From Takakia lepidozioides (Eukaryota > Plantae > Bryophyta), in assembly GCA_030704615.1 (NCBI GenBank), contig CM060734.1:10788001-10852000 (forward strand): 64,000 nt of DNA, read 5' to 3'. Of this stretch, positions 11,189-35,209 are shown piece after piece. The position numbers and the translations under genes were made by a program. The notes beneath the pieces are model-generated. The model was not told where the DNA came from. It saw nothing but the letters and a program-made list of their open reading frames with translations, and ran no database searches. The stretch's first letter is position 1; every line of letters begins with the position of its first letter.

Positions 11189-11288
11189 ATATTTCAAGCA
11201 CCCATCATCTGTGTGCACAACAATTTGATGTGCAATTTGTGCCACAGACTCAACATAAAGCTGGTACGATGATCAGATGGGTGTGCCT

Positions 11289-12780: not shown

Positions 12781-13775
12781 GACTGGACTTTGCATCACAG
12801 GGAGTTAATGATTGAGTTTGTTAGCAATTTCGATTCCATGATAGACACTACGATAGTGAAGGGCGTGGTTATACGACTCACTCCAGAGAGGCTGCAGGAA
12901 GTTTTTGAGCTGCCAATATATAGGGAAACAACCTGATAGGGAAGAACTGGAGGAGTTGCAGATTTCAGACTTGTTTGAGAAGGGAGCTTTTTCTGTTATT
13001 CAAAAATACACATGCACGAAGTCAAAGTATTCTGGTTTGAGAGATGTGGGTCAAATGCTTATTGTTTTGTTTAACATGAAGCACAATCAAATGTATCTCA
13101 GCAAAACTTTCGTGGAAAAAATCATCAGGGCTCTGAAACGGGAAGATGTGTTGTGGGCCGAGATGATGCACAAAGGGTTAGTGAAGGAGTTGAAGACACT
13201 TCAGGAGAAGAAGCCCAGTAGTAAACCCCCAATCATTGTTTCTGCACCTGTGATTGCCCATCTCATCATGGCTTCGTGCCAACTCTCTGTGAAGGAACGC
13301 AAGGCCATGGGCGAGCTTGTCATGCCAACCACTGTGAAGGTGGATTGGAGGGACAGGGTAAGACAAAGCGTCAGAAGACAACATCTTTCACGCCAAATAC
13401 AAGACCACAACCACATGTGATCGACTTGGTCGAAGAAGACAGTCTGGTGGGTGAGGAACAAGTGGGCGCAGTTCTTGAGGTGATGGTCACACAGCCACAG
13501 AGTTCCTTACAACGGGGTAAGGCTCACCAGATGGCTACATGGGAAAAAGATGTCAATTCGCAGCCACAGCCATCACAGCAAGATACTCGGGTTACCGTTG
13601 AGGGTTCAGTTTTGGATCTTGACCCTCTCTCTACAAGGCTGGCGGATTTTATTCCTACTTGTGAGCAGATTCAAGTAGAGATTGCCAGTGGAGATCTCAT
13701 ATATGAGACGGTTCCCTTCAAAGACAGTCTGAACTTGCAGACCCCATTCAACACAACATCAACCCCACATTGACA
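12780..13775 (+). pseudogene. Broken ORF resembling plant retrotransposon accessory proteins
   Basis: Three frameshifted segments (IEFVSNF…VKGVVIRLTPERLQEVFELP; DVLWAEMMHKGLVKEL…SAPVIAHLI); the family resemblance is weak. Confidence 0.4.
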
Positions 13776-13829
13776 AGACAGAAAAATTGCCATACACGAT
13801 CAAAATACAAACATCAGGAAACTATAAGT

Positions 13830-14500
13830 CACTACAACAGATCTCGGCTTTTACGTCTGCTATTTTCCAGTCGTATCAGCCTTTTACGACTGCATGACTG
13901 CCCAGTCAGATAAACCCAGTCAGTTGTGACAAATGAGTCGTAAGCGCCATAGAGTCGTATCTGCCAGTCGTGGAGCTCACTGTTGACGTGGCAACGGGGA
14001 CGCCTAATCATAGTCATTGATAAGACCATAGTAAATGACTGCGAATCCATGTCAGCTTCACGTGGAACGGAAGGGATATGCCACGTGTCACGTCAAAGGG
14101 AAGGCGACAGGGTCTTCACGACTGGCATATACGACTTCCGCGGATTAACCGCAGGACAGCACGTGGAGAATACCAGGAACGACACGTGGCATGACAGGGT
14201 GACTTCCACAGATTAACCCCAGGACAACACGTGGATTAGATTGGACATGACACGTGGCATGACAATATGGAGCGGGAGGGTCTTTCATGACTGGCATATA
14301 TGACTTCGGCCCAATCCCAGGTCCACACGTGGAGTCAAATTATGCAAGATGGGGGTGGGGTGGTCGTTATGACTGGAACATATGACTTCCATGGCGCACT
14401 TTGGATACTGCACTTGCCACGAGTATGGGCAAACACGAGGGATGAAAGTGGCACGTGGCGGAGGCTCTGTGGATGGGAGGTAGTTGTGTACATGACCATA
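13830..14500 (+). mobile_element. CACTA left end with subterminal repeats
   Basis: Starts CACTACAACAGA at 13830, followed by repeated ACGACTG/CAGTCGT and GACACGTGGC motifs; no matching right end identified. Confidence 0.6.
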
Positions 14501-14949
14501 CGAAAACACCATTGAAACATGAAAGCACATTTGAAATTGGAACATCGATTCAAATACAACATGACTTAATGTTCAGAGATCCATTCCATAATCTAATCCT
14601 CTGCTACAAAAATGCACAAAGCTGCAAAGTCTTAGTAGACTTCCAAATGCCTGAGCAGAAGATGCATACACTGGCTTGGCCGGACTTGGTCACCCACCTT
14701 CAACTGCCATCCAGCCCGAAAATGGCAGAAGATACATGAGCAAGCTTTCAGGCAATATAGCAACAGCAACATTGACATATGTGAAACAAACTAACATCAC
14801 TAAGAATGTCTAAGCACCATTACACAAACTTGATGTGAAGTTCAAGGTCCTTCATCACCTAATCTAGTCGAATTGAGTAATACAAGTGGTGTCAAATGGA
14901 GGCCCATACTTGGGCATCTTCTTACCAGCACAACAACAACCACCTTCCA

Positions 14950-15645
14950 GAATTTTGCAAACATGTCCACCACGGTATTGTTCAGAATGACATCTGGTAC
15001 AATTCCAGCTCTGAAGATGTCGCCATGGACCTCTTTCCCCTTTTCCAGAGTTGCTAGGGCAGTGTTTAGAATGACATTTGGTACTTTCCAGCTTTGACGA
15101 TATCCCCATGCACCTCTTTGCCCTTCTCTAGGGCTGCCAGGCTTGCATGACGCCACATCTTGTTCAGCCATAGTGTTGAACACTCCCTTTGCATCCTAGA
15201 TGCACCCACATTTTGCAAACATGTCCACCAAGGTGTTGTTCAAAATGAAATCTGGTACAATTCCAGCTCTGAAGATGTCGCCATGAACCTCTTTCCCCTT
15301 TTTCCAGAGCTACCAGGGCAGTGTTTAGAATGACATTTGGTACTTTCTAGCTTTGACGATATCCCCATGCACCTCTTTGCCTTTCTCTAGGGCTGCCAGG
15401 CTTGCACGACGCCACATCTTGTTCAGCCATAGTGTTGAACACTCCCTTTGCATCCTAGATGCACCCACATTTTGCAAACATGTCTACCAAGGTGTTGTTC
15501 AAAATGAAATCTGGTACAATTCCAGCTCTAAAGATGTCGCCATGGACCTCTTTCCCCTTTTTCCAGAGCTGCCAGGGCAGTGTTCAGAATGACGTTTGGT
15601 ACAATTCCAGCTTTGATGATACCCCCATGCACCTCTTTGCCCATG
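14950..15645 (-). pseudogene. Tandem triplication (~258-bp period) of a PLS-type PPR gene fragment
   Basis: TTTTGCAAACATGTC recurs at ~14953, 15211 and 15470; translation ALEKGKEVHGDIFRAGIVPDVILNNTVVDMFAK; frameshifted. Confidence 0.85.
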
Positions 15646-15939
15646 ACCAGCTCTTCTACTTGCTGCATTGTTCTTGTTTGAACTCAGTTAAGTCAGCCAC
15701 CAAAAGATCAAGTTGTTCTCCAGTAGCTTTCAGGTGTGATTGGGGCAGTCCTTGAAGCACCAAAATTCTGGCATTAACTATAGTTGCACTACCCACATGA
15801 AGAGTTGCCCTCTCCTCAGTAGCCTTGGCAGTCTTACTGAGTCCAACTATCATCACATGTAGGGTTTGTAGTTCATGTTCAGACTCAGCCACTCTGGTAT
15901 GTAAAGGGCGAATTTTCCCAGTAGAATCCTTTTGCTGCA

Positions 15940-16570
15940 CTGTCAATAGTTCAAGTGCCTCTTGTGCGTGACCTGACTGAGCTAATCCAACCATCATCCA
16001 ATTCCATGAGATCACATCACGCTTGGGCAATTTTGCAAACACTTCCCGTGCATCTTCCACACCCCCGCATTTGCAATACATGCTGACGAGGGCGTTCCCC
16101 ATACTGATATTTGACTGAAATCCAGCTCTAATGATGCCCTCATGGAGCTGCTTGCCTTGCTCTATTAACAATGGGCTGGAACATGCATTCAAGATGCACA
16201 AGAAAATGACCTTATCTGCCTTCACACCTTCTCTTTGCATCAGATTCACTCGATTGACACAGTAAACTTATGCACCCGATTGTCAACCTCAATGCAACTG
16301 TGCCCTGCCTCCTTTCTGACACCTTTGTCCTTCATCATTGCTCTCGCCTCTGTGGGATCACCCCACTTGCCAGCTGCAGCCCCACACTTGGCATACATAT
16401 CAACGAGAGTATTCTCCAGTTTCAAATATGACTCTGTTCCGACATCGATCGCAGCATGGACCTCTTTGCTCTTTTCCAAGGCTGTCAGGCTCGCACATGC
16501 ATTGAGAACGCAAATGAACATCACTTTGTTGGGCAATACCCCTTGCTCAATCGTTTGCTCATAGGTCGCA
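15940..16570 (-). pseudogene. Scrambled PPR fragments including an E-domain end
   Basis: FLCILNACSS…NALVSMYCKCGGVEDAREVFAKLPKRDVISWN; MMKDKGVRKEAGHSCIEVDNRVHKF (E motif) precedes further PPR motifs, so the order is scrambled. Confidence 0.85.
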
Positions 16571-16674
16571 AGCGCATTTGGCTTTAAGCCTTTATGTTGC
16601 AAGATGGACAAACTTCTTCACATCGTACATTGAGAAAAAGCCACACCTTGCGATTGCGGTTGTCCATCGTGATC

Positions 16675-16765
16675 GTGAAGGTGGCGAGCCGCTTCCCATA
16701 GTAGTCGATGGCCACATCGTTCACCACATCTTCATGCCCCGATTCTAGGGTTTGAGTCCATGTCC
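16675..16765 (-). pseudogene. Captured fragment resembling the first WD40 repeat of SEC13
   Basis: QTLESGHEDVVNDVAIDYYGKRLAT, recalled as matching the plant SEC13 N-terminus (IETGH.D..HDV.MDYYGKR.AT); nothing else of the gene is nearby. Confidence 0.7.
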
Positions 16766-16989
16766 GCCCCCTATCCCACCAACTCCGCTCGTCGTCTCTC
16801 ATGATCAGACTCAACACTAAAACAAAACAAACATAACTCCGCCCTGATCGACATCCCTCATGATCAAACTCGACACTATAAGAAAGCAAACACAGCTCCG
16901 TCATGTTTGTCGTCTCTCACGATCAAACTCGACACAAAGAAAACAAACAAATGGCATGGGAGAAAAAAAAAATGGTAAGTCCCCTCTAC

Positions 16990-17530
16990 TCATGACTGGA
17001 TGGATGTAGCGGTAGATGGATGGATTTTGGGTTTTCCATCAATACATCCATCCATTCATTTGTTTTTCCATTTTTTGGTCATTTTAATTTCATCCATTCA
17101 TCCAAAATGAATCTCTAAATGAGTTTCACTGTCAGTTCATCCATTACTGCCAGCTTAGCGTTTGCATTATTATTTATGTTCATCCAATAGTTGCCAACAA
17201 GGCATTTGTTGTATCATTCGTTCATACGTTCATCCAGTGCACAAAAGTTATGTTTGATATGTTCATCCAATAGTTGCCAACAAGGCGTTTGTGTATCATT
17301 CGTTGAGATAATACGGTCGTTTTGTTTCACTAACCTTAACCAGCAGTCGATTAGTTTACTGTTAATCTGTTGGGTCAGTGAAACAGTAGTTAAATGTTTT
17401 TACTACTTATTATCCTCAAACTTAACATTGCGACCTAGCAACCCTAAATTCAAGCACATTCATCCTAATTCATCCTAGTTCACTCATCCTAATTCATTTT
17501 AATCATTCATTTATCCATTCATTCCTTCAT
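16990..17530. repeat. CATCC/GGATG-rich low-complexity repeat
   Basis: Many CATCCA/TTCATCC motifs and a duplicated GTTCATCCAATAGTTGCCAACAAGGC; similar motif-rich patches at ~42500-42790, 45520-45720, 61440-61600 and 62590-62980. Confidence 0.55.
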
Positions 17531-17876
17531 TCACAGGGTGTGGCTTAGTGCCCATTTACGCAGGCTGTATGGTCTAAGGCTTTTGCCTTCAACTCCATAT
17601 GGAACCGCAATCTTCCCTACTCGCCATCTGCTCTTCTGCTGAACATTAAGGATGCTGTCATTTTCTACTCTTGTCCAGTGTGGGAATCAATTAGAGGGAT
17701 CATTCTTTGGAACATTTGGAAGATGAGGTGTGCTGTTATCATTTAGAATGTGAGACCTTGCTTGCAGAAAGTGTTGTATGGGGCTCACTCAGACCTGGTG
17801 TCTGAAGCTCGAAAAGCGTGGCATGTTGTTGCGACAGCTCTTCCCAGGTGCAGTGCCTCACGAAGGGATCAATTGC

Positions 17877-18599
17877 TCACTTCCTTTGACAATTCATGGG
17901 GGAACCACTACATCTTCTGCAGGAGACTCTTCTGTAGTATCTCTCATATATGCCTGGATTTCTCTCAAGCTTTAATGCACCCTTGGCTATACTAGAAGTC
18001 TCCGTTACCATATAACCATATGGCAAGCATGTCTGGAAAGCTGTTCTTGGTGTAAGTTTGATCCACAGGATATCCTTAGGAATCCAATTCTTTACCAGTA
18101 CCAATTCTTCATACATATGAGTGTAAACATTCACTTTCCGTTCCTCCCAGCCTTCAAACTCCACTCGTTTAATGGATAACAACGCTATCACATAAACCAG
18201 TGTTGGTAACCAACTTGCTCTCCCTCTACATGCCACTTGATAAATCTTTATCACTCCTTTCTCCAGACCCCACTCTGGATCTACATCATGCACTCTCTTA
18301 AGAATGTTTTCTTTGCAACCGTCTGGCAATTCCAAGAACCTCTGAAAGAATTGTTTGGACAATCTTTCTTTCTCAGTTCCACAGGGAATTTGATTCACAT
18401 CAAATTCTTTGATTCTCCAACCACCATGATCCCACCAGATGCCTGTCACATCTGGTTGTTCTTGACCCAGTTCCTCGGTATGGTCGCCAAATGTCGAGCG
18501 GCTTTTACTCACCCATCCCTTCGCTATCCGAGGTGGGAACTCCAAGATAGAGGAGTTGGATATCTCTAAGCACTCAGCCCGCTCATAACAATCAGTCAT
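17877..18599 (-). other. Unassigned repeat-family ORF remnant; related sequence at ~34440-34500 (+)
   Basis: The peptide LKLERNPGIYERYYRR occurs in both ORF 17877-18599(-) and ORF 34196-34612(+); no domain recognised. Confidence 0.45.
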
Positions 18600-19124
18600 G
18601 ACCTACAACTAGTGTATCATGGAAGTGCTTCCTATTTGTATTCCTTCTTGCCTTCATGTCAGCAAGTTACCTTACTGTTTATATTTAAGTATCAGATTGC
18701 TTCAGCAATCTATCAAGTTCCAATCACTCATCCATACATTCCACAACTTCACTCAGATCTCTCTACACAGTGTGAGTATGGAATGTGTATCAGATTAAGA
18801 TCTATCAAGTATCAGGCCGAAACCATAGTGTCCCTAGTCTGCTTTACAGTAACTCTACAGTTTGCATGGATCAAGCATCAGCAGTGTCTCCTCCTTCTAT
18901 GCGCTCTCCATTCCTCAGCTCCCGATCGCCCTTTCTTCCTGAAGGCCAAGTCCTGATGCAAGAAGTCATCTCCCCATTACTACTTTGCCTTTTCTACCTG
19001 CAAGCTGTTCTAACTGCCTAACTAACTAACTGTCATCCAGATAGAATACACGTTTCCGCTGCCGATGTCGTTCCCACTCAGTCGTTCCCTGCCCTGGTAA
19101 CCGTTCCCTGCGAATGCCGTGACG

Positions 19125-19285
19125 GGCTGTGCCCAACTGTGTCGGCTGTGACTGGCTGTGTTGAGCTATGTCGGGCTGTGGCTAACTGTGTCGGGCTGTG
19201 TCAGGCTGTGATAGACTGTGATAGGATGTGTAAGGCTGTGTCAGATTGTGACTAGCTATGTCAAGCTATGACTGACTATGTAAGC
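19125..19285. repeat. Degenerate ~10-bp tandem repeat (GGCTGTGTC-like)
   Basis: Repeated CTGTG/CTATG cores at about 10-bp spacing. Confidence 0.75.
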
Positions 19286-19419
19286 ATGTCTACCACCCCT
19301 AAGGCCTGTGTTGGTCTAAGTCTACCATCCATAAGTTTGTGCAAAAATTAAGGGTACCCCACAGAACTCGTAAAAACTGTCTAAGTCCCAGACAACCCTC
19401 TAACAAGCCCTAGCTTCAG

Positions 19420-21496
19420 TGCCATTGCCGGTGTCATGAAGGAGTGCGACGCTCTTGTGTCCACCAGCAACGACACGTTAGTTTTGGAAATTATACTACA
19501 AACATCAACTGACTCCATTTACGCAAGGGGCCAGTCTCCTGATACAACTCACAAGAGTAGTTGCCTACCTTGCAAGTCTTGGCGATCACCGCTTCCACCA
19601 AGCGGCTGATGGAATCTTCAGACAGCTCTGTGGTCGCCCGAGTCATGTTCAATTGACGGGGCTTCGCGCACTTCTTAGCCATGTGCCCGGGCTCCCCTCA
19701 ATTAAAGTACACTCCATCGAAGGTCGCCTTCTGTCCGCCATAAGCCGTCGCACCTGATTTTCCTTTCAGAGCACCAGGTGTCGCCTTGACGTGTGAAGGC
19801 CCTCCCTTCGATTTCCATGTGTCATTGTCGCCGCGTGGCCTATCCCACTTCTTTTCCGGTCGGAAGGAGTCACCCTCCCGCCGAGTCTTCTTGTGGTTCA
19901 GCTCCGTACGGCCTTGTCTTTCGCCCCTAGGGACATCCGAGAAACATTCAGCCCTTTCAATTGCATCATTCAAAGTCTTAGGTGGCTTCTCCTCCAACTT
20001 CCGCCTGGCCCATGGGGCCAGTCCCGCCACAAAGTTGAAGACCATTTCTGGTTCCGCCATATCCGTGACTTCGAGCAATAGCACATTGAAAGCCTGAACA
20101 TATCCCCGAATGTCATCCGTTTGCTTCAAATTCCTCATCTTGTCCCGGGCGAGCCAGGACGCGTTGAGGGGAACAAACAGTCTTTTCATAAGTTCCTTGA
20201 ACCCACTCCAGCTCAAGGTTTCTGGGTTTGGACCTTGGTCATGAAGGCATTTCTGCCACCATTGTTGAGCATAGCCCCTCAAATAGGTGGGAGCCACTTC
20301 CACCCGATCCTCGTCACTCAACTTGGCCGCCCGGAAGTACCGCTCTAGCTCCAAGAGCCAGGTGTTGAGTGCTTTCCGATTTTGGACGCCCTCAAAGGTG
20401 CCGGGTTCCTCAGGCTTCACCTTAAACTTTGCCTTCGTGGAAGTGGCATTAGCCACCTCAACACGTCTTTCAACGTCCCGCCAAACTGCGCCAACAACCC
20501 TTCCCAAAAGGCTGCTGGCATGGGAGGCATCTGTTGGTCTGGCAGAGCCTCCGGGAAGTCCTTGGGCTCCAACTCCCCAGATTCCTCCCGTTCTTGAGCG
20601 GCCTCGCTTTCAAAAGCATGAATCACCTCCTCAAATTGCCGCGTCGGTGACACGTTGCCCCCATCGGGCTCACCAGGATCATCATCTTTCAGGCCGTTCC
20701 GCTTTTGCTTTGGCTTGCCCGAGCCCATGATGAGGCCGATCTCAAGGATGATCGCGTAATGAACTCTAAGTTCTGATACCAGGTGTCGCACACCTCACTT
20801 CGGTAAGCTCCCCTTCAAGTGATAGTTACTCGCTTTGATGCGCGCGCCTAACTCCCAAACTGGCCGCCGGGCCAACTCGGTGCTTCGGCTACTCACCGGG
20901 ACATAACGGTCCCCCTTTGCTCCTCTACAAGACCCTCTCTCAATTGGGGCCTAGTGGAAATTCCCTTTGGTTGTTGGCAGTCTGGAACAGCTCCCCACAC
21001 CTTGGTTGCTTTCCGGCTCGCACGCTTACTCACTAGTTTTTGGTCACCAACGGGCTTGCACCGTTCTCGGGGTTACTACTCCCTTATATATACTTCTGTG
21101 ACTATCTGCGGGGGTTTCACAAACAACGCCATCCTTTTATGGCGAACCACCACGAAGACCCTCCATTCCCGGTGGTGAGTTGCGGTGAGTCTTGGCCCAC
21201 CCACCACGGCCCCATTGGACCGTGATGAGTCCCAAGACTCCCCATGACTCCCACCACAAGGTCTCCGCCCCATGGCGAGTCCTATGCCACCCCCACTAAG
21301 TCCCACTAAGCTACCACCACCCCTCCACCGCAACCCGGTGTGCGGGGTTCCACCTAGTGAGCGCCTCCGTCTCCTTGAGTGCTTTGGGCACTCAAGGGTG
21401 ATTCAGCCCCCGTATATATTGTTGCCACTGCCCCCACCACAGGGGCATCCCCTTTTGTGTCCCGACCCCCTGCCCTCAAGGCGAAGGGCCGCGACA
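19420..21496 (-). mobile_element. Ty3/Gypsy 5' half: LTR 20784-21496, tRNA-Met PBS, gag, degenerate zinc knuckle and start of protease
   Basis: LTR bounded by TGTCGC…GCGACA; PBS TGGTATCAGAAC (minus) at 20770-20781; gag ORF 19698-20507 (TYLRGYAQQWW, LKQTDDIRGYVQAF); GH..KKC knuckle remnant; LLVDTRASHSF protease motif at ~19440-19475. Confidence 0.92.
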
Positions 21497-21499
21497 CAA

Positions 21500-22480
21500 A
21501 TTGACCCAGAGTCGGGTCTATCTGCAATGCCACACCACATTGTCATACGTTTTGACAAAGATACAGACATGCCCAAGGAGCAGGCGCTCTACCGCGCAAA
21601 GAAGAGGTTCGCTGACATGAACATTCCACTTGGGACAGTGCTATACTCACCAATTACAGCATATTCTAAGCATGCTAGCAACTTGTGATCTGGGATTCTA
21701 AGAGTTGAGTTACTACACCCGGCTAAAGACGGAATTGCGCTACTCAAAGGCAACAGAGCCTTTGTCATGGAGATGGCCTCCGGAATTCCATTACACGGCA
21801 AAATTGAAAAGGCTTGTGACTTACTCGCACCCTCGGACTACCTCTCCCTTTACATGAACAGTGATGCCCTGCTGGGCATCATCAGCTACAGGCTCACAAT
21901 GCACTTCATACTGGAAACATACTATCATGGTGACGAGTTTGAGATCATCAACGTGTACAAGCAGGGGCCTGAGAAGAAATTCTGCTTTATCTACTTGGCT
22001 TCAGAAGACACTAAGAAACGAATGCTGGAGAAGAGTGTCCGCTTCAACCACACCCTCATCGACACGCAACTACGCATCCAACGAGGTGGCACGACGAGTC
22101 TAGCAACTACTCCCCAAGAAATGGTGGCCGAAAGGGATGCGCTCACACTTGTTGTCAAGGGCCTCAATCCCTTACTCTCCCAGACAGACACAGAAGCTGC
22201 TCTTCGAGACGCCTTCGGCAAAGGCAACATAATCCAAGTCTACTTCAACAGGATAGCACCAATGGAAAAGACCAAGCACTCAGGCACGGCGCTCATCACC
22301 AATAAGAACCCAACATTTACACCTAGTGGTGCAATCAGCCTCACATCAAAATACAAGGCAGGTATGTTAAATTCGAGCGCCACACGAATAGTCTGAACGG
22401 GTCAGCACCCCCGGCCAATGAGATTCTGGAGCGACTCCGTGTCGCCAACACTAATCAAGCCCTAGCAGATACAGTAAACT
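21500..22480 (+). pseudogene. Decayed ORF, probably LINE ORF1 with RRM-like segments
   Basis: Long reading frame with a stop and a frameshift; KFCFIYLASED and TLVVKGLNP…AALRDAFG are RRM-like. Interrupted by the LTR on the left and the Mutator-like end on the right. Confidence 0.45.
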
Positions 22481-22693
22481 CTAGGGGGCTGCTATTTCAC
22501 GAGCGGCATGAGCATGAGCGGAAAAAAAAAAAACATGAGCGGGCCATTGTGTGTCCACGGAAATAGGGTTAGGAGGCACGGAAATAGGGTCATGTGGACT
22601 CGTCATAGCAATGAAATGCAACATTTTATTGCAAATTTTATGGCAAGCCACGTTTATACAAGTGTGTCCTAACTGACATAGCAGGAATGGGAA

Positions 22694-25600
22694 CTACTCT
22701 CCTACACCTTCCGAGGAACTTGGCCCTCCTTCTTCCTCATCCCCCTCATCCCCCCCATCCTCCGAGCTCTGTGATGCATCGGTTGCACTATGCCTCTCAA
22801 AAATTCCGTCCTCCCCTTGGGGGACTGTCCACCTCACCTCCTGGGAATCTTCTGCCTCTTCTCCCCCACTTTCCTTAGCAGAATCCAAGACAAATCTACG
22901 AGCCCGACGGGCTCTAATATCTGTTGCCTCCTCCCTCATCTTCATTTTCTTGAGGCTTGCCTCGTCTAAAATCTGTTGTACATGACTAGGTTCGGAAGAC
23001 CTCCTAATGGACACCGAAGCAAGCCGGGCAGCATAAGTAGGAAGGATGTAGTCCCTTTCTGGACTAGGCATGAAATCCCCCCTGGCAAAAAAAGGCACGT
23101 TCCTCCTGCCCATGAACTCCGGTGTAGACGTCCCTCCTGCAGTACTTGGCATCCTACAGTAAGAACAAATCCACTTCAAGAATGTCAATACCAGCAGAAG
23201 CAGAAAGGGTTTTCAATGAAATAAGAGAACGAAGGGAGGTGCCTCACAAAATCTGGAGGCAACTTACAATGCGACCACTCACTCGTAAACCGGGGGCTCC
23301 TCGGCCTCGATCCCAACTTGTTCCTCCCCCTGCTCCTTCTCGGATTTTTCCTCATCCTCCGAGGGTGCCTCTTCCTCTTTGGGCAGACGTTCAGCCGCTG
23401 CAAGTTCCGAGTTGTGGAGGGTAGTATCTGGCTCGAAGGCGAACACATGCCTGTCGGACAACGTCCCTGCCCAAATTGAAGCACCTGAGGAACAAAGCGG
23501 GCGGTTAATAGCTTGCGGCATGCAATTGCAATCGGGCCAGGGGACAAACTGAGCACGTGAAGGCTTACCCGTGCCACATGTGAGGTCAAGAATCCGCCCT
23601 TGGACATCCGAGCACGTCTCCATGAGGGTTTGGATGAAAGCAGGGCTCCGGGTCTGGCTGTACCGCCACGGTTTGCTTGTCTTTGTGTCCTTCGGCATAC
23701 TGGAGTGGGGCACATAGTTGTAGAGGACATCGTAGGTAACAGGGTCCACAGCGGCATCAACAAGACGACCGTCGTTGCGGAATTTGAACGTAGACCCTCT
23801 CTTCACAAAGCAATATGCCTCAAACACCAATGTCTGCACATCCAACAAAAGAGGGATCAACTCCGGGATCTAGTTTAGATACGCCACAATATGAGGTGAA
23901 TGCAATAGATTGATAACTTACACTTTGGCCCTCTGTTCGCAACCCCTGTGTATTGATGCAGAACCATTTTCTGAGGAGGACCGGGGTGACACTTTTCGGT
24001 GTCCATCTTGCCACCGCATTCTCTGTGGTCTTCCCTCTTGTGGCAAGGACAACCACACATCCACCGTCATCCAAGAGCATCCCCGCCAGCCCAAACCCGG
24101 CTTTCCAGTAGTCCTCAGTAAACCTGTTCCAGTTGGGCACACCATCCAGGCCCTCCAGCAGCTCCCTATCTGGAATGTCGAGGAGAATCATATCGCAAGC
24201 TCTCTCCACCTCAACCCCCCCCCCCCCCCCCGAGTGCTCTTGCAATCCGTGCTCACAGCCGTGAAGAATTCCATCATGGCTTCAAAACTAGGGGTGTCTT
24301 TAGGCTCTGTACCGGCAGCCCTGTTCTTGCCTTTCCCCTTCTGCTCCGCCAGAGACTTGCTGTGTGCCACCTTCTTCGCCCTGGCAGCGAGAGCGTCAAG
24401 GAAGCTCTCATTGACGCATTGGATGATGGTTGGAGGTTCTAGCTTTGGCCTGTGCGTAAACGTCACCGCCGAATACCGCCGTGTAGGCTCGCCCTCAAAT
24501 ACCAACTTCTTGGCAGAGCCAGTCCCACTCCGAACTGACTTGGGAACCCGGACGACCGGTGACTTGGTAGCAGCAGTAGCAGTCGCAGGACCTTGAACAA
24601 AGTCGTCGTCCGAGTCACTCCCTTGGGTCCCCTCCTGCGCCTCCTCTGATGCCCCGATGGTTTTCTGTTTTTTGGGTGTTACTGTACTCACCTGTTTCCT
24701 TGTCCTTTTCTTTTGGCCTTTATTCTTCTCATTCAATTTCTCCTGAATTCCTGCATGAGCAAGCTCTGCCGCTTTCCTGGAGTTCGCAAGCGCTTTTGCC
24801 TCTTTTGGACCCAGCGGAGGCAGCGGAGCCCGGTTTCGTCGGGCCTCAACATCCAGCTTCAATTGAAACTCGGATATGTCGAGCGAGACGGGCGGAAGGT
24901 CCATATACCAAGGGCAATCACGCAAATGTTCCAGATGCCACTCCTTCACAATAACGTCAGTGTACATGGAGTCAGCCCCAGGGTTCCTCCATGCCAGGAA
25001 GAATGGTGGCTCGAAAGACAGATGACCTTTCTCCAAAAGGGAGAACTTGCAGTACCTGCATTCATGAAAAACACAGAATGAGGTCCCTGAACTGGAAATT
25101 CGGCACCATTTTCCCAGGTTGGGGCAGAACTGATTGGGCCTAGAACTGGGAAAATGGCGCCAAATTTCGGTTTTCGGTGCCAGCCACCCTAGGGACTTAG
25201 CCATTTTCGGAGCCCTGAACTGGAAATTCGGCGCCATTTTCCCAGGTCCGGCCCGAAAATGCCTAAGTCCCTGAACTGATTGGCCTTGGAATTGGAAAAA
25301 TGGCGCCGAATTTCGGTTTTCGGTGCCAGCCACCCTAGGGACTTAGCCATTTTGGGAGCCCTGAACTGGAAATTCGGCGCCATTTTCCAAGGACCAATTT
25401 TTATGCGCCACATGAGGCCTCTAACATCCTGAAATGCAAGGACTTGAAAGGAAGGCATCGCGTATGTACCTGTACAGAAGGCGCATTGCTGCTTTGTCCG
25501 CGTTCGGCTGGTCGGTGAACTCGTGGCTCCGGCGGGCATGGGGTATCTCCCGAAAGAATAGGTCGGTTTTGTACAGTAGAAAGTACCTCGTCACATAGTC

Positions 25601-28105
25601 GCGTAGGCTCTCTGCTGCAGGAGAAATCTCCATCTTGAATTGATGTGCTTGTGTGTCCAGCTGCTCTTGCGCATTCGTCGTCACCTGTGGAGATTCTCCA
25701 TCAGATCGCTTTCCTGAAAAAATACAATGAATCCACCCCCTACAAGAGTAGAAGCGCCAAACGAAGCGTGGGGAAGTACCTGAAACCACCATGTCATGCG
25801 GTTCATCCACATGTCGAATGTCGGGTCAGACAGTTTGTCCGGTTTGGGGAAGCTCCACATGTCCCTTGTACTTTGGGAACCATTCCAGATTTGGATCCAC
25901 CGGGTCTGTCCAACCACCCAGCATATTCGTAAGCGCCAAACACCACAAAAACGAGTTGTTGCCACCACAATTTGGTTAAGAATGTATCACCTTTTCTGTT
26001 GCATCCACACAGGATGTGGCTAGACAATGGAGCTTCTCCAATGTCATCGTGGGCTTCAGAGCGCGGGAGTAGTGCTTCCCCACCTCCACCAGAAAATCGG
26101 CACCAAGGGCGGGATCAGCTATGGCCACGTACTTTAGCATCCGCGACTTGTACTTTATGCGGGTCCTGGCCTCCGCAGCTTTGAGATACGATTCGAGTGC
26201 CGGGAGGGTTAGATTCTTCTCCTCTGACTCCATGTAGAACCTCCGCGCATGTGCCAAATCCTGCTGAATTTTCGTCTGTCAAGAATGCGCACATAAGATT
26301 AGAGATCCTGCTCAACACTTTTTCTTCTATTGGGGGAGGAGAGACAGATTAGCTCAACAAAACAGTCAGGAGCTTTACCCGAAATATGTAGTCCACCATG
26401 GCATCCATGCTCAGCCTATACCAGGTTCTGTCTGCCTTTGCCTCCGACTTGCGCAGGAGGTCGGCACTGAGCGAATTGGCAAACTCTTGCACCCCCTGCT
26501 TCCCGACATCCTTCACTCGGAAGAGCATATGGGACAAGTTGGTGGCAATGAAGGCATTCTCAGTCACCCTGCAATGCCACATTTCCATCAAACAATACTG
26601 AAATGGGAATTTTCAACAAATATGAGGATTCGCAATGAAATGACTTACAAATTTTGGGTCCAAAAGCAAGAGGCGTTGTAACTTACGAGTTGATGTCCGC
26701 CATTGCAGCTTTGAGAAGACTGCGATTTTTGGGCCCCGCAACCTTCAGCACAACACACTCCACGGCGAAATGCCAATCGAGGTCGTTGGGGTGGGCTTCG
26801 GCTATGTGCTCCATCCATGCCAGGAGGCGATGATTGCCGTCCCACACGTAAAACATCTTTCCGGACAAGTGCTGGAAAAGAGGATCAGTAGCAATCGATC
26901 TCTCGAACTCCTCATTTCGCCTTTGCCAATGGGGACCCCATTTGTCCACCTCATCGGAAGTGTGGGCACGGGAAGCTCCGTGGTCGTTCTCAATGGAAAC
27001 GTAAAACGCGGTAGACCCCATTCGATATCCATCCCGGAAAGAGAATTTCAGCTTGTCGATATCGTCTGGGAGGGCAGGTCTCACCACCTGCAAAGACACC
27101 AAGCGGCAAAGGGGAATTCGAAGCTTGGCCGGGTACACCATGCCACCCAGCACCCTGCCAATGTTGCTCTGGGTTGCCTCCAACATCTTGGCAGCGGCCA
27201 ACTTCATATCCGCCTCCGACATGACGTCTGCTGCAGAGGGGTTCTCCGGCAGCCCACCAGGACCGCCAAATTCAGCCTGTATGCTGCGGGTTTGGGGCCT
27301 GGGGATGTCCGGGAGGATGTCATCCTGGTCAGAAAGCTTGGTGTCGTCCTCCTCAACATGGTCAACCACCGGTGAAACCACCTCGAGCACTCTCCCCGTC
27401 TCTACTGCCATCTCCCCGGCTTCACCTCGAACTTGCACAATCCGTGCTCTTTGTGGTGTTTCTTTCCTCTCCTCCACTCTCCACCGTATGGGTAATTGCG
27501 GGGGCTGCTCTTGTCCGCGATGGTGTAACCGGTGTGTTACTACCTCTTTGTGGTGTCTTGGAGGGATCCACCGTCTCTGTGCGTCCCTCGCTTACATGGG
27601 CATCTGTCATTTCGGCACCCCTGGCCTCTTCAGTGGCATTTTCTCTTTCCTCCTGGCTAGCCTTCTGTCTCGCCTGTTCTTTTGCCCTCTCTTTTGCCCT
27701 CTCACGGGCTTTCTATTTCTTACTAGGGCTAGCAGCAGGGGAGCCCTCCAGGACGACCACCTTTGATTGAGGAGAACTGACACCCTCGCGCGCACTGCTC
27801 ACTCCCCCCTCCGCAGCCCGTGACGGCTCTCTCGCCGGGGATTGCATGTGTTTGGCTTTCTTCTTCTTCTTTGCGTGGGCGGGCCCTACTGCATGTGCAT
27901 CAACAACCTCCATTGCCGGATCTGCTGTCCTCACGTCCTCACGCCCTTCACCTGCCATGCCGCCTGCACCAACCTCCCTAATGCCTATTCTGTCGTACTC
28001 TCGCTGCAGGTCCTCCCGTCCACCAACAAAAGGTTTTAGTTTGCCCTCCCGCCCCAAGTTGGGCGATCCAAACATGCGATGAGTTGGAGCTGTTGATGAT
28101 ACCAC
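22694..28105 (-). CDS. Multi-exon cargo gene (possibly recent pseudogene): low-complexity N-terminus, ParB/Srx-like domain, helical region, beta-class N4C/N6A DNA methyltransferase-like domain, acidic tail
   Basis: In-phase GT-AG exons: ~27477-26687, 26568-26379, 26275-25991, 25905-25780, 25684-25470, 25055-23922, 23833(or 23869)-23569, 23484-23283, 23153-22694. ParB-like: IPLCRLV…VRPALPDDIDKLKFSFRDGY…FYV…YVWDGNHRLLAW. MTase-like: CDMILLDIPD (motif IV position), LLDDGGCVVV, then spliced TRSPAFIQTLMETCSDVQGRILDLTCGTG|ASIWAGTLSDRHVFAFEPD (motifs X-I-II). Lesions: TAG at 27713, frame change near 27480, frameshift in a 17-C run at 24215-24231. The start is uncertain. Confidence 0.75.
25080..25390. 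repeat. Intronic cluster of ~5 variant palindromes related to the central array
   Basis: CTGGAAATTCGGCGCCATTTTCC-type cores at ~25092, 25146, 25220, 25292 and 25366 inside predicted intron 25056-25469. Confidence 0.85.
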
Positions 28106-29089
28106 CAGCGTGCCGGGCTCGTCGTCACTCTGTCATTCCCGAAAATCGTGAGAACCAACATCGGAATGAAAACCACCATCCGCCACGAGCAGCGCAACCA
28201 CCATCGCAACAATCGTGGAACAACAATGAAAACAAAACAAAACCAAGTATGGAGTGCCATGGAACAACAATGAAAACAAATCCAACCAATGCCTAAGAAT
28301 GACATGCACAAGCAGCCTTCTTCAGAGCTGCCGGCTTTGCCCACGCATTGCAAACTATCTAAGGTTCACTCAACCAGTAACTTGCAGAAACACGATGAAC
28401 ATTTGAACACGAATTCCATAAGACGGGAAAACAGGGTGAAATGTTTTTAAGGCATTTCATTTGCTCAGACAATCTTCTCAGCTCAGCATGGATTTCCTTA
28501 ATTCCGAGATGCAACTTGTTATCTACAGCGAGGTGTGCACCCTGTTCTGGCAAGCAATCTGAATGCAGCAACGACCTGGCTCCTTTCTAACCACTCTGAC
28601 CTTGATCATTCTTCTCAACAACTCGTGCTTTTGCGATGCAACCATGCGCTTCCAGGGCTGCCAAGCGGAAGATGTGAAAACAAACTAAAAAAACGAAGAA
28701 AACCGAAAGAGGAAGGGCGGAACCTGAGAGTGCTCGGCTTCAGTTGGAGCGGGCTGTGAGCAAGACAATGGAATTTCCTGCTGGAGCTTAAGTTTGGCCA
28801 TGCGAGAGGTTGGACGTCGCCCGTAGTACAAAGCCTTCAGCTTCCGCCGCGGTCTGGATGTGGGGTTTCTCTCAGGAGAGCCACGCCCTTCTCCACGCGG
28901 CATAAGTCCCAGCAAAAGAAAAAAGATCTCACAGTATGTGTGCGTACATGCCTCGAATAGAAGTTCATCCAAGTTTAGCATCAGGTTTCCAAGGCGTATC
29001 CGGGAAGCAAGCGCGGAATCCTTGTGTCGCCAGCCCGGTTCAAAACCGACGGCGGAGGACATTTAATGCGCAACTACGTCAATCGCCCG

Positions 29090-30565
29090 CTGGATGGAAA
29101 AAATCGGCGCCGAATTTCCATCCAGCGGATGAAGTATGACGCAACGAGGCCATCCCTCCGCCCGAGCCGTTCTCATCCAGGAGACGCCGGATGGAAATCC
29201 TGCACCGCATTTCCATCCTGCAGGTAATTCGGAGCGCGGCCGGATGGAAAAACGGCGCCGACTTTCCATCTTGCAGGCAATTCGGAGCGCGGCCGGATGG
29301 AAATCCGGCGCCGAATTTCCATCCCAGAGGTAATTCGGAGCGCGGCCGAATGGAAAAACGGCGCCAAATTTCCATCCCAAAGGTAATTCGGAGCGCGGCC
29401 GGATGGAAAAAAGGCGCCGAACTTCCATCCTAGAGGTAATTCGGAGCGCAGCCGGATGGAAATCTGGCGCCGAATTTCCATCCTAGAGGTAATTCGGGGC
29501 GCGGCCGGATGGAAATCCGGCGCCGAATTTCCATCCTAGAGGTAATTCGGGGCGCGGCCGGATGGAAAAACGACGCCGAATTTCCATCCTGCAGGTAATT
29601 CGGAGCACGGCCGGATGGAAAAACGGCACCGAATTTCCATCCTGCAGGTAATTCGGAGCGCGGCCGGATGGAAATCCGGCGCCGAATTTCCAACCCAGAG
29701 GTAATTCGGAGCGCGGCCGGATGGAAAAACGGCGCCGAATTTCCATCCGCCAGGTAAGTCGAAGCGTGGATGGATGGAAATCCGGCGCCGAATTTCCATC
29801 CTACAGGTAATTCGGAGCGCGGCCGGATGGAAAAATGGCGCCGAATTTCCATCCTGCAGGTAATTCGGAGCGCGGCCGGATGGAAATTTGGTGCCGAATT
29901 TCCATCCCGCAGGTAAGTCGAAGCGCCAAATTACCATCCTGCAGGTAATTCTGAGCGTGGCCGCTTGTTTTTTTGGTCAAAAAAGACACAACCTTAAGTT
30001 TTAGACACGGTTTTCAGGGAATTCTCGACTGGTTGAGAGAAATTCCTTGCTTCTTTTCCATCCCTCGTAGTTCCTACATGGAAATTCGTTGCCGAAATTC
30101 CATCTGGCCGCGATTGCGATTAAATGCCGAATGGAAATTCGGCGCCGGTTTTCCATCTGGCCGCGAGCGCGATTACATGCCGAATGGACATTCGGCGCCG
30201 GTTTTCCATCCCCTCCGCCCGAGTCGACTTTATTCCGGCGCCCCCTGTTGGATATTCGGTGCCGAATTCCCGTCCGGGGGTTGTAATGTGACGGCCATGT
30301 GCCGGCCTCTCCCCCCGAGCCGACTGCATCCGAACGGCCCCGGATGTAAATTCGGCGCCGTTTTTCCATCCGGGGAGGTTTTTATGTCAGCCACTTTTCG
30401 GCCTGACCCCCTGACACGACTTCCTTTGGGGGGGCCCGGATGGAAATTCGGCGCTGAATTTCCATCCAGGGGATGTTCTCCGTCGGACAGGTGCTGGCCT
30501 CTCCGCCCGAGTCGACTTCATCCGGGCGGCCCATGTTGGATATTCGGTGCCGAATTTCCATTCGG
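29090..30565. repeat. Tandem array of 53-bp units, each holding a 30-bp palindrome (~14 strict units at 29189-29960, plus ~8 looser flanking copies)
   Basis: Unit GGTAATTCGGAGCGCGGCC + GGATGGAAATCCGGCGCCGAATTTCCATCC + TGCA/TAGA; period 53 measured at 29223, 29276 and 29329. The idealised core GGATGGAAATTCGGCGCCGAATTTCCATCC is a perfect palindrome. Confidence 0.95.
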
Positions 30566-30865
30566 GGGTTGTAATGTGACGGCCCGGTGCCGGCTTCTCC
30601 CTTCAGCCGACATCATCCGGGCGGCCCCCCACTTTTTGACTGCATACCGTTGGCAGTTATTGCGCAAAGACCAGGGGCCGCATTCCGGAGAGAATGTTCA
30701 TTAACACTCTGACTGTGGATTTTTGAGATAGTTGGCTCCCTGGATTTGGATGAGGCTTCGTCGCTCGGACAAATCGGCACCGCATTCCTTCCCATCGGTG
30801 CATCCCCCTTCTACCAGGGAGCTTGCCCGCACGCCATCCTGGTAGTCTTGTGTGCACATCTCCCA

Positions 30866-33488
30866 TGGCGGAAAACCCGAGCGCTACAGTGTACTGCCCT
30901 CCTCACGAGCATAGAGCTTCATTTCCGTGCAGAGGGGACATCTGCCGTGTGATGGAGAAATATCTGTGCGTTCGATACCACCTGAAACCGGGGTCGGTTT
31001 TTTTGGAGGAGGAAAGGAAGGACTCAAACGACGTTGTTGTCGAGAGTATTGTTGTGCTCCACGATGATTTCGGCGATGGCAGGGAATGGCGAGTCCCACC
31101 ATCGGACAGAGTCATATACAGGGCGGTTGGGGACTTCATTTGCCCACCAAATGCACCTTCTATCCTGGCGCCTTCCACGAAACAATCCGCGAATCAGAGA
31201 GTGGGTACCTCAAAGAGAGAAGTCCGCAACGAAGTAAATCCAGAGACCAACCCATCAATGAAGACGAGCGAGAACCGGGTTGTTCACAACCTGTCCGACT
31301 CCGACGAGGTCATGGAAGTTCCGAGATCGTCCTGGAGATCAAGCAAGTCCTCAATGGACGTCAGTGGACGAGGGAGTCATATTCCCAACACGAGCACCGC
31401 AGTTCGATCCATTCTTGAAATTCTGCGAGGGCTTCACATGGATGGACACCGCTCGGAGCTGGCCGGGCTGGACTACAGCAAGTTTGCAATTAAATCGGTT
31501 ACATGCCTTCCCGCAGACGTCGACGGTAATATCTTCTTTGAGTTCCCTCCTCGGACGGACTACTCGAGGGCGTCCGGAATGTTGACAGATATGGATAGAA
31601 AACATGACGGTCATCCTTGGTGCGTCACCAAAACCACCAGCATGAAGATGCTCGATGGTGTGCGGGTGCGCTACGTTGTTTGTGCGGGCGCGTTGCGGTG
31701 TTTCTCCCCAACTTGCTTCCATTTTAAATCCAGAGGTCACAGGAACGAGACCGATTGGACAGGCACAACTCATCAACCATTTCGAGCTTAGGAGAAGGTT
31801 CCGAACTCCACATTTAAGTGTGCACATTGCAAAGAACCACCACACTGCATGTCTGTTTGTAATGCCAAGCAGTTCTATGTGTTGCATCGTTTCCCTGACC
31901 TCACCCGAGCTTGCATACACGTTGGTTCCCATTGTCACAAATTGGCGAGGGGGAACTCGTGGGAGGCTGCCCACAAGGCAGAGCAGCTCGTTCAGGAGGA
32001 GGTTAAGTTGAGACCGGGTGCCAAACCCAAACAGATACAGCTCCAAGCCGCCCATAAGATGGCATTGGCCAGAATTATGTCGGAAGACGGCTCCGATAGA
32101 GTTCCTCTCAATAAGAAGGAAATGGAGGCATTGTTGGAGTCGGTGTCCCACGTCTGTTCACCGAATGTCCGAAACCACATTGTCTCATGCAAACAGAAAA
32201 TTGGGCGTGGCTCGGATATGCACTCCATTCTGGAGGTGAAGCGACGATGTGGATATGACTACATTCATGGAAGTAGGTTTCCAGGACAAGGGACTGAGGC
32301 AGATCGTTGTCCACGTGTGGACTTGGCAGCGGCGTCGAACTGGTCGACAGGATGACGAGTGGGGACTTGTCAAATAGTTGGGTCATGTTCGACCATATCA
32401 AGCGAATTACAAATCACCAGTGGGTGACAATGGGTGCACATGTCTACGACACCCACTGCAGGATGCTAATGACAATTGCTATTTGTGAGATGAAAGGAGA
32501 GGACACACAATCGGAGATGCTTCTTTGGCAGGGAATAAACAAACAGATGGCCAAGGCCCCCTCCCAATTTCCGTGGTTTCATGGCGGACAACACACAAGC
32601 AAATTGGGCTGCCATCCAAAGGGTGTATGGGCAAGACCCCAATGTTCCCATGGAAGGCAAGGAGAGATCTTGTGGGTTCCATTTTCTGCAGAGCCTTTCG
32701 CAGTACACAACCAGGCTCGTGGCGCCAGATTTCAGAGAGGAGCACCATTCCATGTGTCTTGCGTGGAAGCGCGCTCCCACCTTGGATGATGCAGAGACAC
32801 AGTTTGCATGTATACGGGCTTGGTGGACATCGTCAGGTGCTGTAAGGAAATCAGACGAGGGAGCAATGGTCAGTTGGCTAGCATGGTGGCATTATCATTT
32901 CCTCCAGTTCGGCGACTATATGCGGGAGGTGAGTTGCACGAATTCGCGTCCCGTTGAAAATTATTCTTGGCATTATTTGTAACTTGCTTGTAACCTCAAC
33001 ATGTGCTTGTGCAGGAAATGTGTCTCGACTCCGACACCGACATGCCCACGACAAACATGGCGGAATCAATGCATTCTTCCTGGCGTGCCTCCTCTGCGGC
33101 GCATCTGGTGGACATCCTCACTGCCACAACGGAGGACATTGTGAGGTCAATTATGCAGCAATGCAGGTACAACGAGTTCTTGAAAGAGAAACAGTGGGGC
33201 TTGGGGCCGGACAGGCAGGAAATGCTGATGCGGACTGCCTCCAGATCGAAGAATCCTCGGAAGTGGGCGGCGGCCTTGCGAGAGGGCCTTCGGGACACGC
33301 CATTACTTCGAAGAGGCCAACATTTGGAAGGAGATGTTCATACCCGTCCAGTGAGACGAAGACTTGACGAGGCACCTGGCGGGGAAGAGGATTTATGGCG
33401 AGCTGACAAGAATATTCGCACGCTCCCTCGTGGTCCCGTGATGTTGCTCGAGGAGGTCTTGTCGAGCACCGCAAGTCCTGCACGTTAG
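30866..33488 (+). pseudogene. MULE-type DDE transposase with N-terminal Cys/His-rich (GCM/WRKY-like) DNA-binding region; inactivated
   Basis: KHDGHPW…CAGALRC…C…CAHC…C…C…HVGSHCH; catalytic-type motifs WVMFDH, FMADN, CGFH (CxxH) and TTNMAESMH. Premature TAG at 31789, frameshifts near 32300 and 32560, intron ~32929-33014. Confidence 0.8.
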
Positions 33489-34524: not shown

Positions 34525-35209
34525 CACTACAAGGAATAGGTGCTTTTTGCACCCGACTTGCGTTGCGATTTTGTTCGAAACGACTGCGCGTGGGACTCCA
34601 AGTTGTGAATGATGACTTGCTAGTCGTCGCAATCGTTTTTATGCCATGCTGGCATAAATGATGGAGTATACAAGTCGTGGAAGTGAACTCCGGGTTTCAC
34701 GCCGATTTATAGGCTGATTTCCAAAAATATGGAAAAATATATTTTTTATATTAATGAAATTTGCAGTCGTGTTGACGACTGCGGGTTGGACCCCCTGGGG
34801 ACATTTTTAGGGATTGTAACCCATATGGCACTATTTTGAAATTACAATGACACGCGTCGAATTGCGAGTGGGACAATTGATAGGGAGCTCGGGTTGTGAG
34901 CTCCGTAAGTCGCAGTGAGGGGGCCGAGGACTTAGCGAGATTTTCAAGTCACTCCTGCTCAGCGAACGCGACCTCCATCTCCTTCTTCTTCCCTTCCTTC
35001 ATCTACTATATTTGCAATGCGTGTGTGATCCTGGCAGCCCTGGAAAAGGGCAAAGAGGTCCATGCTAACATTGTCGAAGTTGGAATCGTACCAGATGTTG
35101 TTCTGAACACTGCTCTGATGAACATGTATGCAAAATGTGGGAGCATCGAGGATGCAAAGGGAGTGTTGGACAATATGGCCGAACGAGATGTGGTGTCTTG
35201 GACTGCGAT
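34525..35209 (+). mobile_element. CACTA left end followed by a PPR fragment (Pack-CACTA-like), interrupted by an LTR
   Basis: CACTACAAGGAATA at 34525; CGACTGCG/GTCGT subterminal repeats; 35005-35209 encodes NACVILAALEKGKEVHANIVEVGIVPDVVLNTALMNMYAKCGSIEDA…RDVVSWTAI. Confidence 0.65.

What the first reader, a model, noticed from the sequence alone, without database searches (positions are those of the whole stretch)
23283..24215. Beta-class N4C/N6A methyltransferase fold revealed only after splicing, with an altered catalytic motif (DIPD)
Seen: removing the 84-nt intron 23485-23568 restores RILDLTCGTGASIWAG…RHVFAFEPD, matching the VLDPFxGSGTT…GRxxIGxE SAM-binding consensus; the motif IV position lies upstream as CDMILLDIPD. 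Established: motif IV before motif I defines class beta, and the canonical motif IV is (D/S/N)PP(Y/F). Eukaryotic 4mC writers of bacterial origin are known in bdelloid rotifers (N4CMT) and Marchantia (DN4MT1). Inference: this is either a divergent active enzyme, a copy-specific mutant of DIPY, or a catalytically dead DNA-binding fold.
Basis: partly seen in the sequence, partly recalled or inferred. Interest (0 to 1): 0.8.

Follow-up and report, generated by a model that had tools for sequence, protein, structure and literature searches.

The report
Plant transposon's disarmed bacterial-type methyltransferase
A highly repeated plant jumping gene carries a spliced gene for a bacterial-type DNA-methyltransferase domain whose key catalytic tyrosine is replaced by aspartate throughout the family, so the protein likely no longer methylates DNA and instead likely binds a palindrome repeated in the element's non-coding DNA, which would help the element stay switched on.

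Summary
Splicing lifts the score against a beta-class methyltransferase profile from 2.6 to 14.1 bits. DIPD aligns with DLPY. DIPD is not a copy defect: no variant at 1% or more was listed at those codons in 1,010 genomic contigs or in the RNA-type contig, whereas other oddities of this copy revert in the family. The domain is the C-terminal part of a predicted protein of about 1,140 aa or more with a likely ParB-like N-terminus. It lies head-to-head with a broken Mutator-type transposase. One palindrome occurs at 26 sites, all in an intron or the spacer. This copy is frameshifted. ParB-methyltransferase cargo is described in algal transposons, and this scan noted it in other plant genomes, including a 'disarmed' case. 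What stands out here is family-wide loss of the catalytic aromatic residue. Best reading: a pseudo-methyltransferase that binds its own element (0.5). Rivals: dead hitch-hiking cargo (0.25), atypical active enzyme (0.2). A 4mC writer like N4CMT or DN4MT1 is not supported.

The parts
23922..24215 (-). Methyltransferase-fold exon part with motif IV DIPD (24179-24168; family majority reads DIPDG) and following strands
23834..23921 (-).
   Evidence: skipped in X8 contig; ends checked
23569..23833 (-). Exon with the variable (target-recognition-like) region and motif I DLTCGTG
23485..23568 (-). 84-nt in-frame GT-AG intron inside motif I; position shared with homologues
   Evidence: skipped in one RNA-type contig; homologues break or carry an insert at the same place
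23283..23484 (-). Exon with the motif II strand (HVFAFE) and an acidic tail
22694..23153 (-). Predicted last exon (low-complexity, acidic) after a predicted 129-nt intron
   Evidence: GT-AG and frame only
24215..24231 (.). 17-nt C run that frameshifts this copy; other copies have 7, 8 or 10 fewer letters (8 fewer is in frame)
24232..25055 (-). Long exon part: basic, low-complexity linker upstream of the methyltransferase domain
   Evidence: open frame; covered by X8 contig 28
25056..25469 (-). 414-nt intron holding 5 copies of the element's palindrome
   Evidence: joint in X8, letters between not known
25470..26568 (-). Four middle exons (26568-26379, 26275-25991, 25905-25780, 25684-25470); no family assigned
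   Evidence: 95-nt intron skipped in X11; others predicted from GT-AG and frame; first exon matches P0028
26687..27240 (-). Likely ParB/Srx-like domain with the DGNHR (GxxR) box
   Evidence: PHROG ParB-like E 0.0055; 44-46% identity to P0028 and P0029; Pfam, PDB and fold tests gave nothing
27241..28100 (-). Probable N-terminal low-complexity region; copy-specific stop at 27715 and a 1-nt difference near 27459
   Evidence: start codon not determined
29080..30620 (.). Spacer arrays (14 x 53 bp, 2.5 x 53 bp, 4.3 x 96 bp) carrying 21 copies of the palindrome with core GGCGCC
30754..33470 (+). Divergently oriented, broken Mutator-like (MULE) transposase gene
   Evidence: ESM Atlas MULE clusters 0.90 and 0.84; stops and frameshifts; no Pfam hit
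22480..22530 (.). Approximate left end of the repeated element (right end not found)
   Evidence: X1 depth 0 at 21500-22450 and about 12,000 in the next bin; loose ends at 22484 and 22528

Best explanation
This is the spliced cargo gene of a highly repeated plant DNA transposon, likely Mutator-type, encoding a beta-class DNA amino-methyltransferase fold that has lost the aromatic residue of its catalytic motif across the family and is therefore likely inactive or nearly so, joined to a likely ParB-like domain that would bind the palindromes in the element's own intron and spacer. Shown: splicing, motif order, family-wide DIPD, repetition, palindrome placement. Inferred: the protein loads at the palindromes, the dead methyltransferase fold adds DNA grip or dimerisation, and the complex keeps the promoter region between the two divergent genes open against host silencing, as VANC does for VANDAL elements and the ParB-like VirB does against H-NS. 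The copy in this window is broken and would not make the full protein.
For: Splicing of 84- and 88-nt introns in one RNA-type contig, and of 414- and 95-nt introns in X8 and X11. Beta-class ancestry: profile of homologues hits 14 PDB sequences at E up to 10, 9 of them methyltransferases, best E 7e-4; homologue P0009 hits PF01555 at E 7.6e-6; the DIPD exon's three best Atlas clusters (0.90) carry PF01555 in 48%, 14% and 56% of members; 200 columns align to a phage beta-class profile, probability 83%, with DIPD over DLPY. DIPD fixed: only two substitutions listed in 24125-24255, neither in the motif, at summed depth about 21,000. Majority letters elsewhere restore conserved residues (G after motif IV, R before motif I, the stop at 27715) but leave the D. 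The aromatic residue stacks on the target base, and eroded motifs mark non-catalytic subunits such as METTL14 and MTA9 (PMC7544214, passages); Y-to-G abolished HP0593 activity (PMC3036652, passages). Motif I is also loose in relatives: the first G is kept in 2 of 10 representatives that have a residue there. The palindrome occurs at 26 sites, 5 in an intron and 21 in the spacer, none elsewhere in 64 kb, none in 100 shuffles. VANC targets lie in tandem repeats in introns and upstream regions (PMC5735166, abstract and section 9).
Against: No activity or binding was measured. The ParB call is weak: PHROG E 0.0055 only; Pfam, NCBIfam and PDB found nothing; the profile match covers 31 columns at probability 47% and is circular. 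No DNA-binding helix-turn-helix was identified. No RNA-type contig crosses the C run, so a single ParB-to-methyltransferase transcript is not shown, and copies with 7 or 10 letters fewer are out of frame too. Genomic copies are mostly 95-100% alike, so the family is young and fixation of DIPD may be a founder effect. The Atlas hits share 133-142 features, below the 170 typical of true members. The unspliced C-half also hits two small-molecule or peptide methyltransferase families weakly (E 0.034, 0.12). The acidic motif II residue and this family's GTG loop are kept, so SAM binding may persist. The palindrome pattern was drawn from the sites it counts. The 53-bp array shows 11 CpG transitions from its consensus, so it has likely been methylated at times.
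Confidence: 0.5

Rival explanations
1. Dead hitch-hiking cargo: the founder of this burst had a one-base Tyr-to-Asp loss that killed a once active self-methylating enzyme, and the gene has been copied along without present function.
For: TAT to GAT is one base change. Copies are mostly 95-100% alike, so little time for decay. This copy has a stop and frameshifts, and several C-run lengths are out of frame. The transposase here is broken too.
Against: Spliced transcripts appear in two runs of separate studies (X8, X11). The X8 contig, which differs from this copy at 25 of about 770 letters, also keeps DIPD and has only a 3-letter gap. Motif I erosion is spread across distant relatives. An unchecked scan note reports a motif-less version in a Mutator-like element of another genome.
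Confidence: 0.25
2. Atypical active enzyme: the protein still methylates an exocyclic amino group, more likely adenine than cytosine, in or near its palindromes, with stacking supplied by another residue.
For: The first Asp and the Pro of motif IV, the following Gly, the GTG loop and the motif II Glu are kept. Phage beta-class proteins with no Phe in motif I are common in the set fetched, though their activity is untested. Algal ParB-methyltransferase cargo is proposed to modify its own element (PMC12477816, passage).
Against: An acidic residue replaces the base-stacking aromatic; non-aromatic substitutions cut or abolish activity. A search on DLPY and motif IV listed no paper with DLPY among 10 shown of 237, and I saw no active non-aromatic example.
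Confidence: 0.2
3. DIPD is a mutation private to this copy, or the domain is an RNA or protein methyltransferase.
For: This copy has several private lesions. Weak hits to non-DNA methyltransferase families.
Against: No variant listed at the motif in 1,010 genomic contigs or the RNA-type contig. The best PDB, Pfam, PHROG and NCBIfam hits of relatives are DNA amino-methyltransferases.
Confidence: 0.05

Closest known systems
ParB-like + N4/N6 DNA-methyltransferase accessory protein of Ectocarpus Sola1-1_Ec32 (PMC12477816; passages read, supplement list seen, FASTA supplements not readable)
   Same: About 1,100-aa fusion of the two domains, encoded on the strand opposite the transposase, proposed to act on its own element.
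   Different: Land plant host, Mutator-like rather than Sola transposase, and motif IV has lost its aromatic residue. The Ectocarpus motif was not seen.
Plavaka accessory genes PAG2 and PAG3 of the red alga Bostrychia (bioRxiv 10.1101/2025.02.11.637652; one passage read)
   Same: ParB-like cargo beside tandem arrays of inverted repeats; a putative adenine methylase in the element.
   Different: There ParB is fused to a 2OG oxygenase and the methylase is a separate SET-fused gene.
Prokaryotic beta-class amino-methyltransferases (PF01555; PDB 5hek, 1g60, 1eg2) and phage ParB-N6_N4 fusions (PMC12704722, PMC4738411; passages read)
   Same: Motif IV before motif I; alignable over about 200 columns; ParB fusion is frequent in phages.
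   Different: Spliceosomal introns, long linker, DIPD instead of (D/N/S)PP(Y/F/W), about 25% identity.
N4CMT (bdelloids, PMC8885841) and MpDN4MT1 (Marchantia, bioRxiv 10.1101/2021.02.12.428880); passages read
   Same: Beta-class fold of bacterial origin in a eukaryote, with introns in N4CMT.
   Different: Both are host genes with SPPY and shown 4mC activity; this is transposon cargo without SPPY. The PDB match to the cytosine-N4 entries was weak (E 0.55).
VANC anti-silencing proteins of Arabidopsis VANDAL Mutator-like elements (PMC5735166; abstract and section 9 read)
   Same: Mutator-like element with an accessory gene and family-specific motifs in tandem repeats in introns and upstream regions.
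   Different: Unrelated protein domains (DUF1985, DUF287). VANC binding and demethylation are shown; nothing is shown here.

Membership tests
Beta-class DNA amino-methyltransferases (PF01555) | Order motif IV - variable region - motif I | tested here: met
   one RNA-type contig carries both in that order
Beta-class DNA amino-methyltransferases (PF01555) | Catalytic motif (D/N/S)PP(Y/F/W) | tested here: not met
   DIPD, no aromatic; fixed in the family
Beta-class DNA amino-methyltransferases (PF01555) | SAM-binding motif I FxGxG and acidic motif II | tested here: inconclusive
   TCGTG (no Phe, glycines kept) and Glu kept; many relatives lack the first Gly
Beta-class DNA amino-methyltransferases (PF01555) | Pfam score at the curated cut-off | tested here: not met
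   window ORFs no hit; best relative 26.5 bits against 26.7; the spliced protein was not scanned against Pfam
Beta-class DNA amino-methyltransferases (PF01555) | Seven-stranded Rossmann-type fold | tested here: inconclusive
   model of one exon pLDDT 48; no model of the whole spliced domain
Beta-class DNA amino-methyltransferases (PF01555) | Methyl transfer to N6-adenine or N4-cytosine | not testable with these tools
   needs an assay
Eukaryotic 4mC writers (N4CMT, DN4MT1) | SPPY catalytic motif | tested here: not met
Transposon ParB-methyltransferase accessory proteins | N-terminal ParB-like domain | tested here: inconclusive
   GxxR box and PHROG E 0.0055; add nothing firm
Transposon ParB-methyltransferase accessory proteins | Both domains in one gene, opposite a transposase in a repeated element | tested here: inconclusive
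   a GT-AG gene model runs open from 27240 to the C run and on; repeated from about 22480 to at least 31000; no contig crosses the C run as RNA
Transposon ParB-methyltransferase accessory proteins | Arrays of one inverted repeat in non-coding parts | tested here: met
   26 sites, all in intron or spacer
Mutator-like elements (MULE) | MULE DDE transposase | tested here: inconclusive
   Atlas 0.90 (MULE in 38% of members) and 0.84 (73%); no Pfam hit
Mutator-like elements (MULE) | Terminal inverted repeats and 9-bp target duplication | tested here: inconclusive
   no inverted partner of the left end found in the window; right end unknown

The most novel reading that the evidence does not exclude
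A land-plant Mutator lineage has converted a phage-derived ParB-methyltransferase into a catalytically dead, parS-like palindrome-loading clamp that shields its own family from silencing: a bacterial partition module reused as a eukaryotic anti-silencer, independent of VANC.
Probability: 0.3. Interest if true: 0.8.

Novelty: new variant of a known kind. Interest (0 to 1): 0.5.

Why it matters
It would show that transposon-borne ParB-methyltransferases, so far proposed to mark their own DNA, can persist after losing catalysis, which points to DNA binding as the selected function. It gives a testable pair, one protein and one palindrome, for sequence-specific anti-silencing outside Arabidopsis VANDALs. 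It lends no support to a new plant 4mC writer.

Tried and rejected
No whole genome is held. Pfam found nothing in the element's ORFs. Two of three protein searches found nothing among longer proteins, so no full-length homologue and no homologous motif IV was obtained. Metagenome scans and a viral scan gave no related loci. Runs of other organisms did not cover the motif (X9 no contig, X10 one 31-nt piece), so conservation of DIPD across species is open. No RNA holder was listed as such on record. The phage hit for the DIPD exon (E 2) is an unrelated 842-aa protein with no such motif: rejected; P0009 had no phage match. PDB sequence search with the DIPD exon alone gave only chance hits. Both structure models were low confidence (pLDDT 48 and 38) and the fold search found nothing at E up to 0.001. 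A co-fold of three exon pieces with SAM gave weak support, 0.35 against best control 0.02, runs agreeing in at least 78% of contacts, partner pLDDT about 51; at such scores the mark was reached by 5 of 78 solved complexes and by all 4 mismatches that passed, and pieces of one gene can pass by likeness to solved structures, so I give it no weight. My first guess of a 52-nt second intron was wrong; the contig shows 88 nt. No terminal inverted repeat was found. CpG observed/expected is 1.29 in the arrays, 0.66 in the gene and 0.43-0.54 in the LINE pieces; age and the motif's own CG confound this, so it is not used. The Iyer 2016 supplement search showed only MT-A70 rows for moss and Selaginella in the 6 passages returned.

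Full report
Observation. On the minus strand the 84-nt segment 23568-23485 begins GTAAGC and ends CCTCAG. It keeps the frame and has no stop, so outside evidence was needed. A 770-nt contig of run X8, which the tool guesses to be RNA, lies on 24220-23922, 23833-23567 and 23482-23276. DNA run X1 (49,566 contigs laid) and run X6 list neither joint. The evidence is one contig in one run. Homologous fragments agree: several stop resembling the query right after motif I, P0005 carries an in-frame insert there and resumes, and P0009 runs straight through.

Fold class. I built a profile from 65 distinct phage proteins (67 ORFs in 122 loci picked by a recalled DLPY-type motif). It scores the spliced domain 14.1 bits, 2.6 with the 84 nt kept, 3.5 for the raw ORF, -2.6 reversed, and at most -0.1 for 200 shuffles, of which 101 were reported. 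A global profile alignment covers 200 columns at 25% identity and probability 83%, placing DMILLDIPD over DMILCDLPY and motif I and the motif II strand over their counterparts. A profile of 18 homologous pieces matched 14 PDB sequences at E up to 10; 9 are methyltransferases, 7 labelled as DNA adenine, cytosine-N4 or modification enzymes, best E 7e-4. P0009 hits PF01555 just under the cut-off and phage DNA-methyltransferase families at E down to 2e-7. The DIPD exon alone recalls PF01555 clusters at 0.90, a lead-level score. Against: the window's ORFs hit nothing in Pfam, the unspliced C-half weakly hits two non-DNA methyltransferase families, and no confident 3D model was obtained.

Is DIPD private to this copy? 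No. Over 24125-24255, with differences listed from 1%, X1 (1,010 contigs, summed depth about 20,000-24,000 at the motif) and X8 show only 24167 and 24192. The first turns the residue after DIPD into Gly, as in DLPYG; the second is silent. Other majority letters restore an Arg conserved in homologues and remove a stop at 27715. So this copy has drifted, but the Asp in place of the aromatic residue belongs to the family. Other species were not covered, and no homologous motif IV was retrieved. The aromatic residue stacks on the target base, and eroded motifs mark METTL14 and MTA9 (PMC7544214, passages). Y107G was inactive in HP0593 and Y108A/G reduced TaqI activity (PMC3036652, passages). Motif I keeps both glycines here but lacks the Phe; the phage set also commonly lacks it, and among 10 relatives with a residue at the first Gly only 2 keep it.

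The whole gene. A GT-AG model of nine exons runs without a stop for 731 codons from 27240 to a 17-nt C run at 24215-24231, then 406 codons in a shifted frame to a stop at 22694. Four of eight introns have contig support (84, 88 and 414 nt in X8; 95 nt in X11); the rest are predicted. Other copies have 7, 8 or 10 fewer letters in the run; 8 fewer is in frame (9 contigs in X1, one in X6), the others are not, and no RNA-type contig crosses it. The N-terminal domain is 44-46% identical to two unnamed proteins, has the GxxR box described for ParB-CTPase folds (PMC12704722, passages), and hits a ParB-like PHROG at E 0.0055. Pfam, NCBIfam and PDB found nothing, and my profile test was short and circular (4 of its 10 phage rows had a ParB-type Pfam hit).

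The element. X1 depth is zero at 21500-22450 and 3,000-22,000 from there to 31000, the end of what was laid; this shows heavy repetition, not a copy number. Head-to-head with the gene, at 30754-33470, lies a broken ORF series whose core piece resembles MULE clusters (no Pfam hit). No terminal inverted repeat was found. One palindrome gives 41 matches at 26 sites: 5 in the 414-nt intron, 21 in the spacer, none elsewhere in the window, none in 100 shuffles; the pattern was derived from these sites. PPR remnants, LINEs and Ty3 elements point to a land plant; unchecked scan notes call the host likely a moss, which I did not test.

Mechanism. Shown: splicing, motif order, family-wide DIPD, repetition, palindrome placement. 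Inferred: the full protein binds the palindromes, cannot methylate efficiently, and protects the shared promoter region from silencing, as VANC proteins do through tandemly repeated motifs in introns and upstream regions (PMC5735166, abstract and section 9) and as ParB-like VirB counters H-NS (PMC10676424, abstract). I put this at 0.5, dead cargo fixed by a founder event at 0.25, an atypical active enzyme at 0.2, and the rest at 0.05.

Comparison and novelty. A 1,104-aa ParB-like plus N4/N6 methyltransferase protein opposite the transposase is described in Ectocarpus Sola1-1_Ec32, with similar proteins cited for green and red algae (PMC12477816, passages; its FASTA supplements could not be read). 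Bostrychia Plavaka elements pair ParB cargo with inverted-repeat arrays (one passage). DAM-carrying retrotransposons are a different class; that preprint does not mention ParB (abstract and passages). N4CMT and DN4MT1 have SPPY (passages). Five literature searches listed no paper describing such cargo in land-plant Mutator elements or a catalytically eroded form; the library lacks most subscription papers, and Iyer 2011 was not seen. This scan has noted the same architecture in other plant genomes, one of them as lacking the catalytic motif (unchecked). Verdict: real, a new variant of a known kind, interest 0.5.

Noticed in passing
window 29080-30620: Three arrays (53, 53 and 96 bp units) share the same palindrome in different flanking sequence; the two 53-bp arrays are 74-78% inverted matches of each other.
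   Followed up: partly
window 31500-31900: Cys/His-rich stretch before the transposase core that recalls a GCM-like zinc domain (from memory; no Pfam hit).
   Followed up: no
window 20784-21500 and 35210-35940: Two 87-94% identical LTR-like copies about 14.4 kb apart flank the transposon; Ty3 gag lies at 19698-20609 and a chromodomain integrase at 36845-38008.
   Followed up: partly
window 14952-16500 and 35015-35200: PPR-gene remnants, including a 259-bp tandem triplication, with an inverted related piece 20 kb away.
   Followed up: no
window 21500-22450: ORF remains covered by RNA-type contigs (X8, X11) but by no contig of DNA run X1 or X6 at 85% likeness; no Pfam hit; unexplained.
   Followed up: no
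window 28456-28617: Short stretch with very high depth and many loose ends in both RNA-type runs: likely a small, widely transcribed repeat inserted in the spacer.
   Followed up: no
window 3415-6150 and 7462-9900: Two related LINE reverse-transcriptase copies, 85-93% alike, with inverted segments between them.
   Followed up: no
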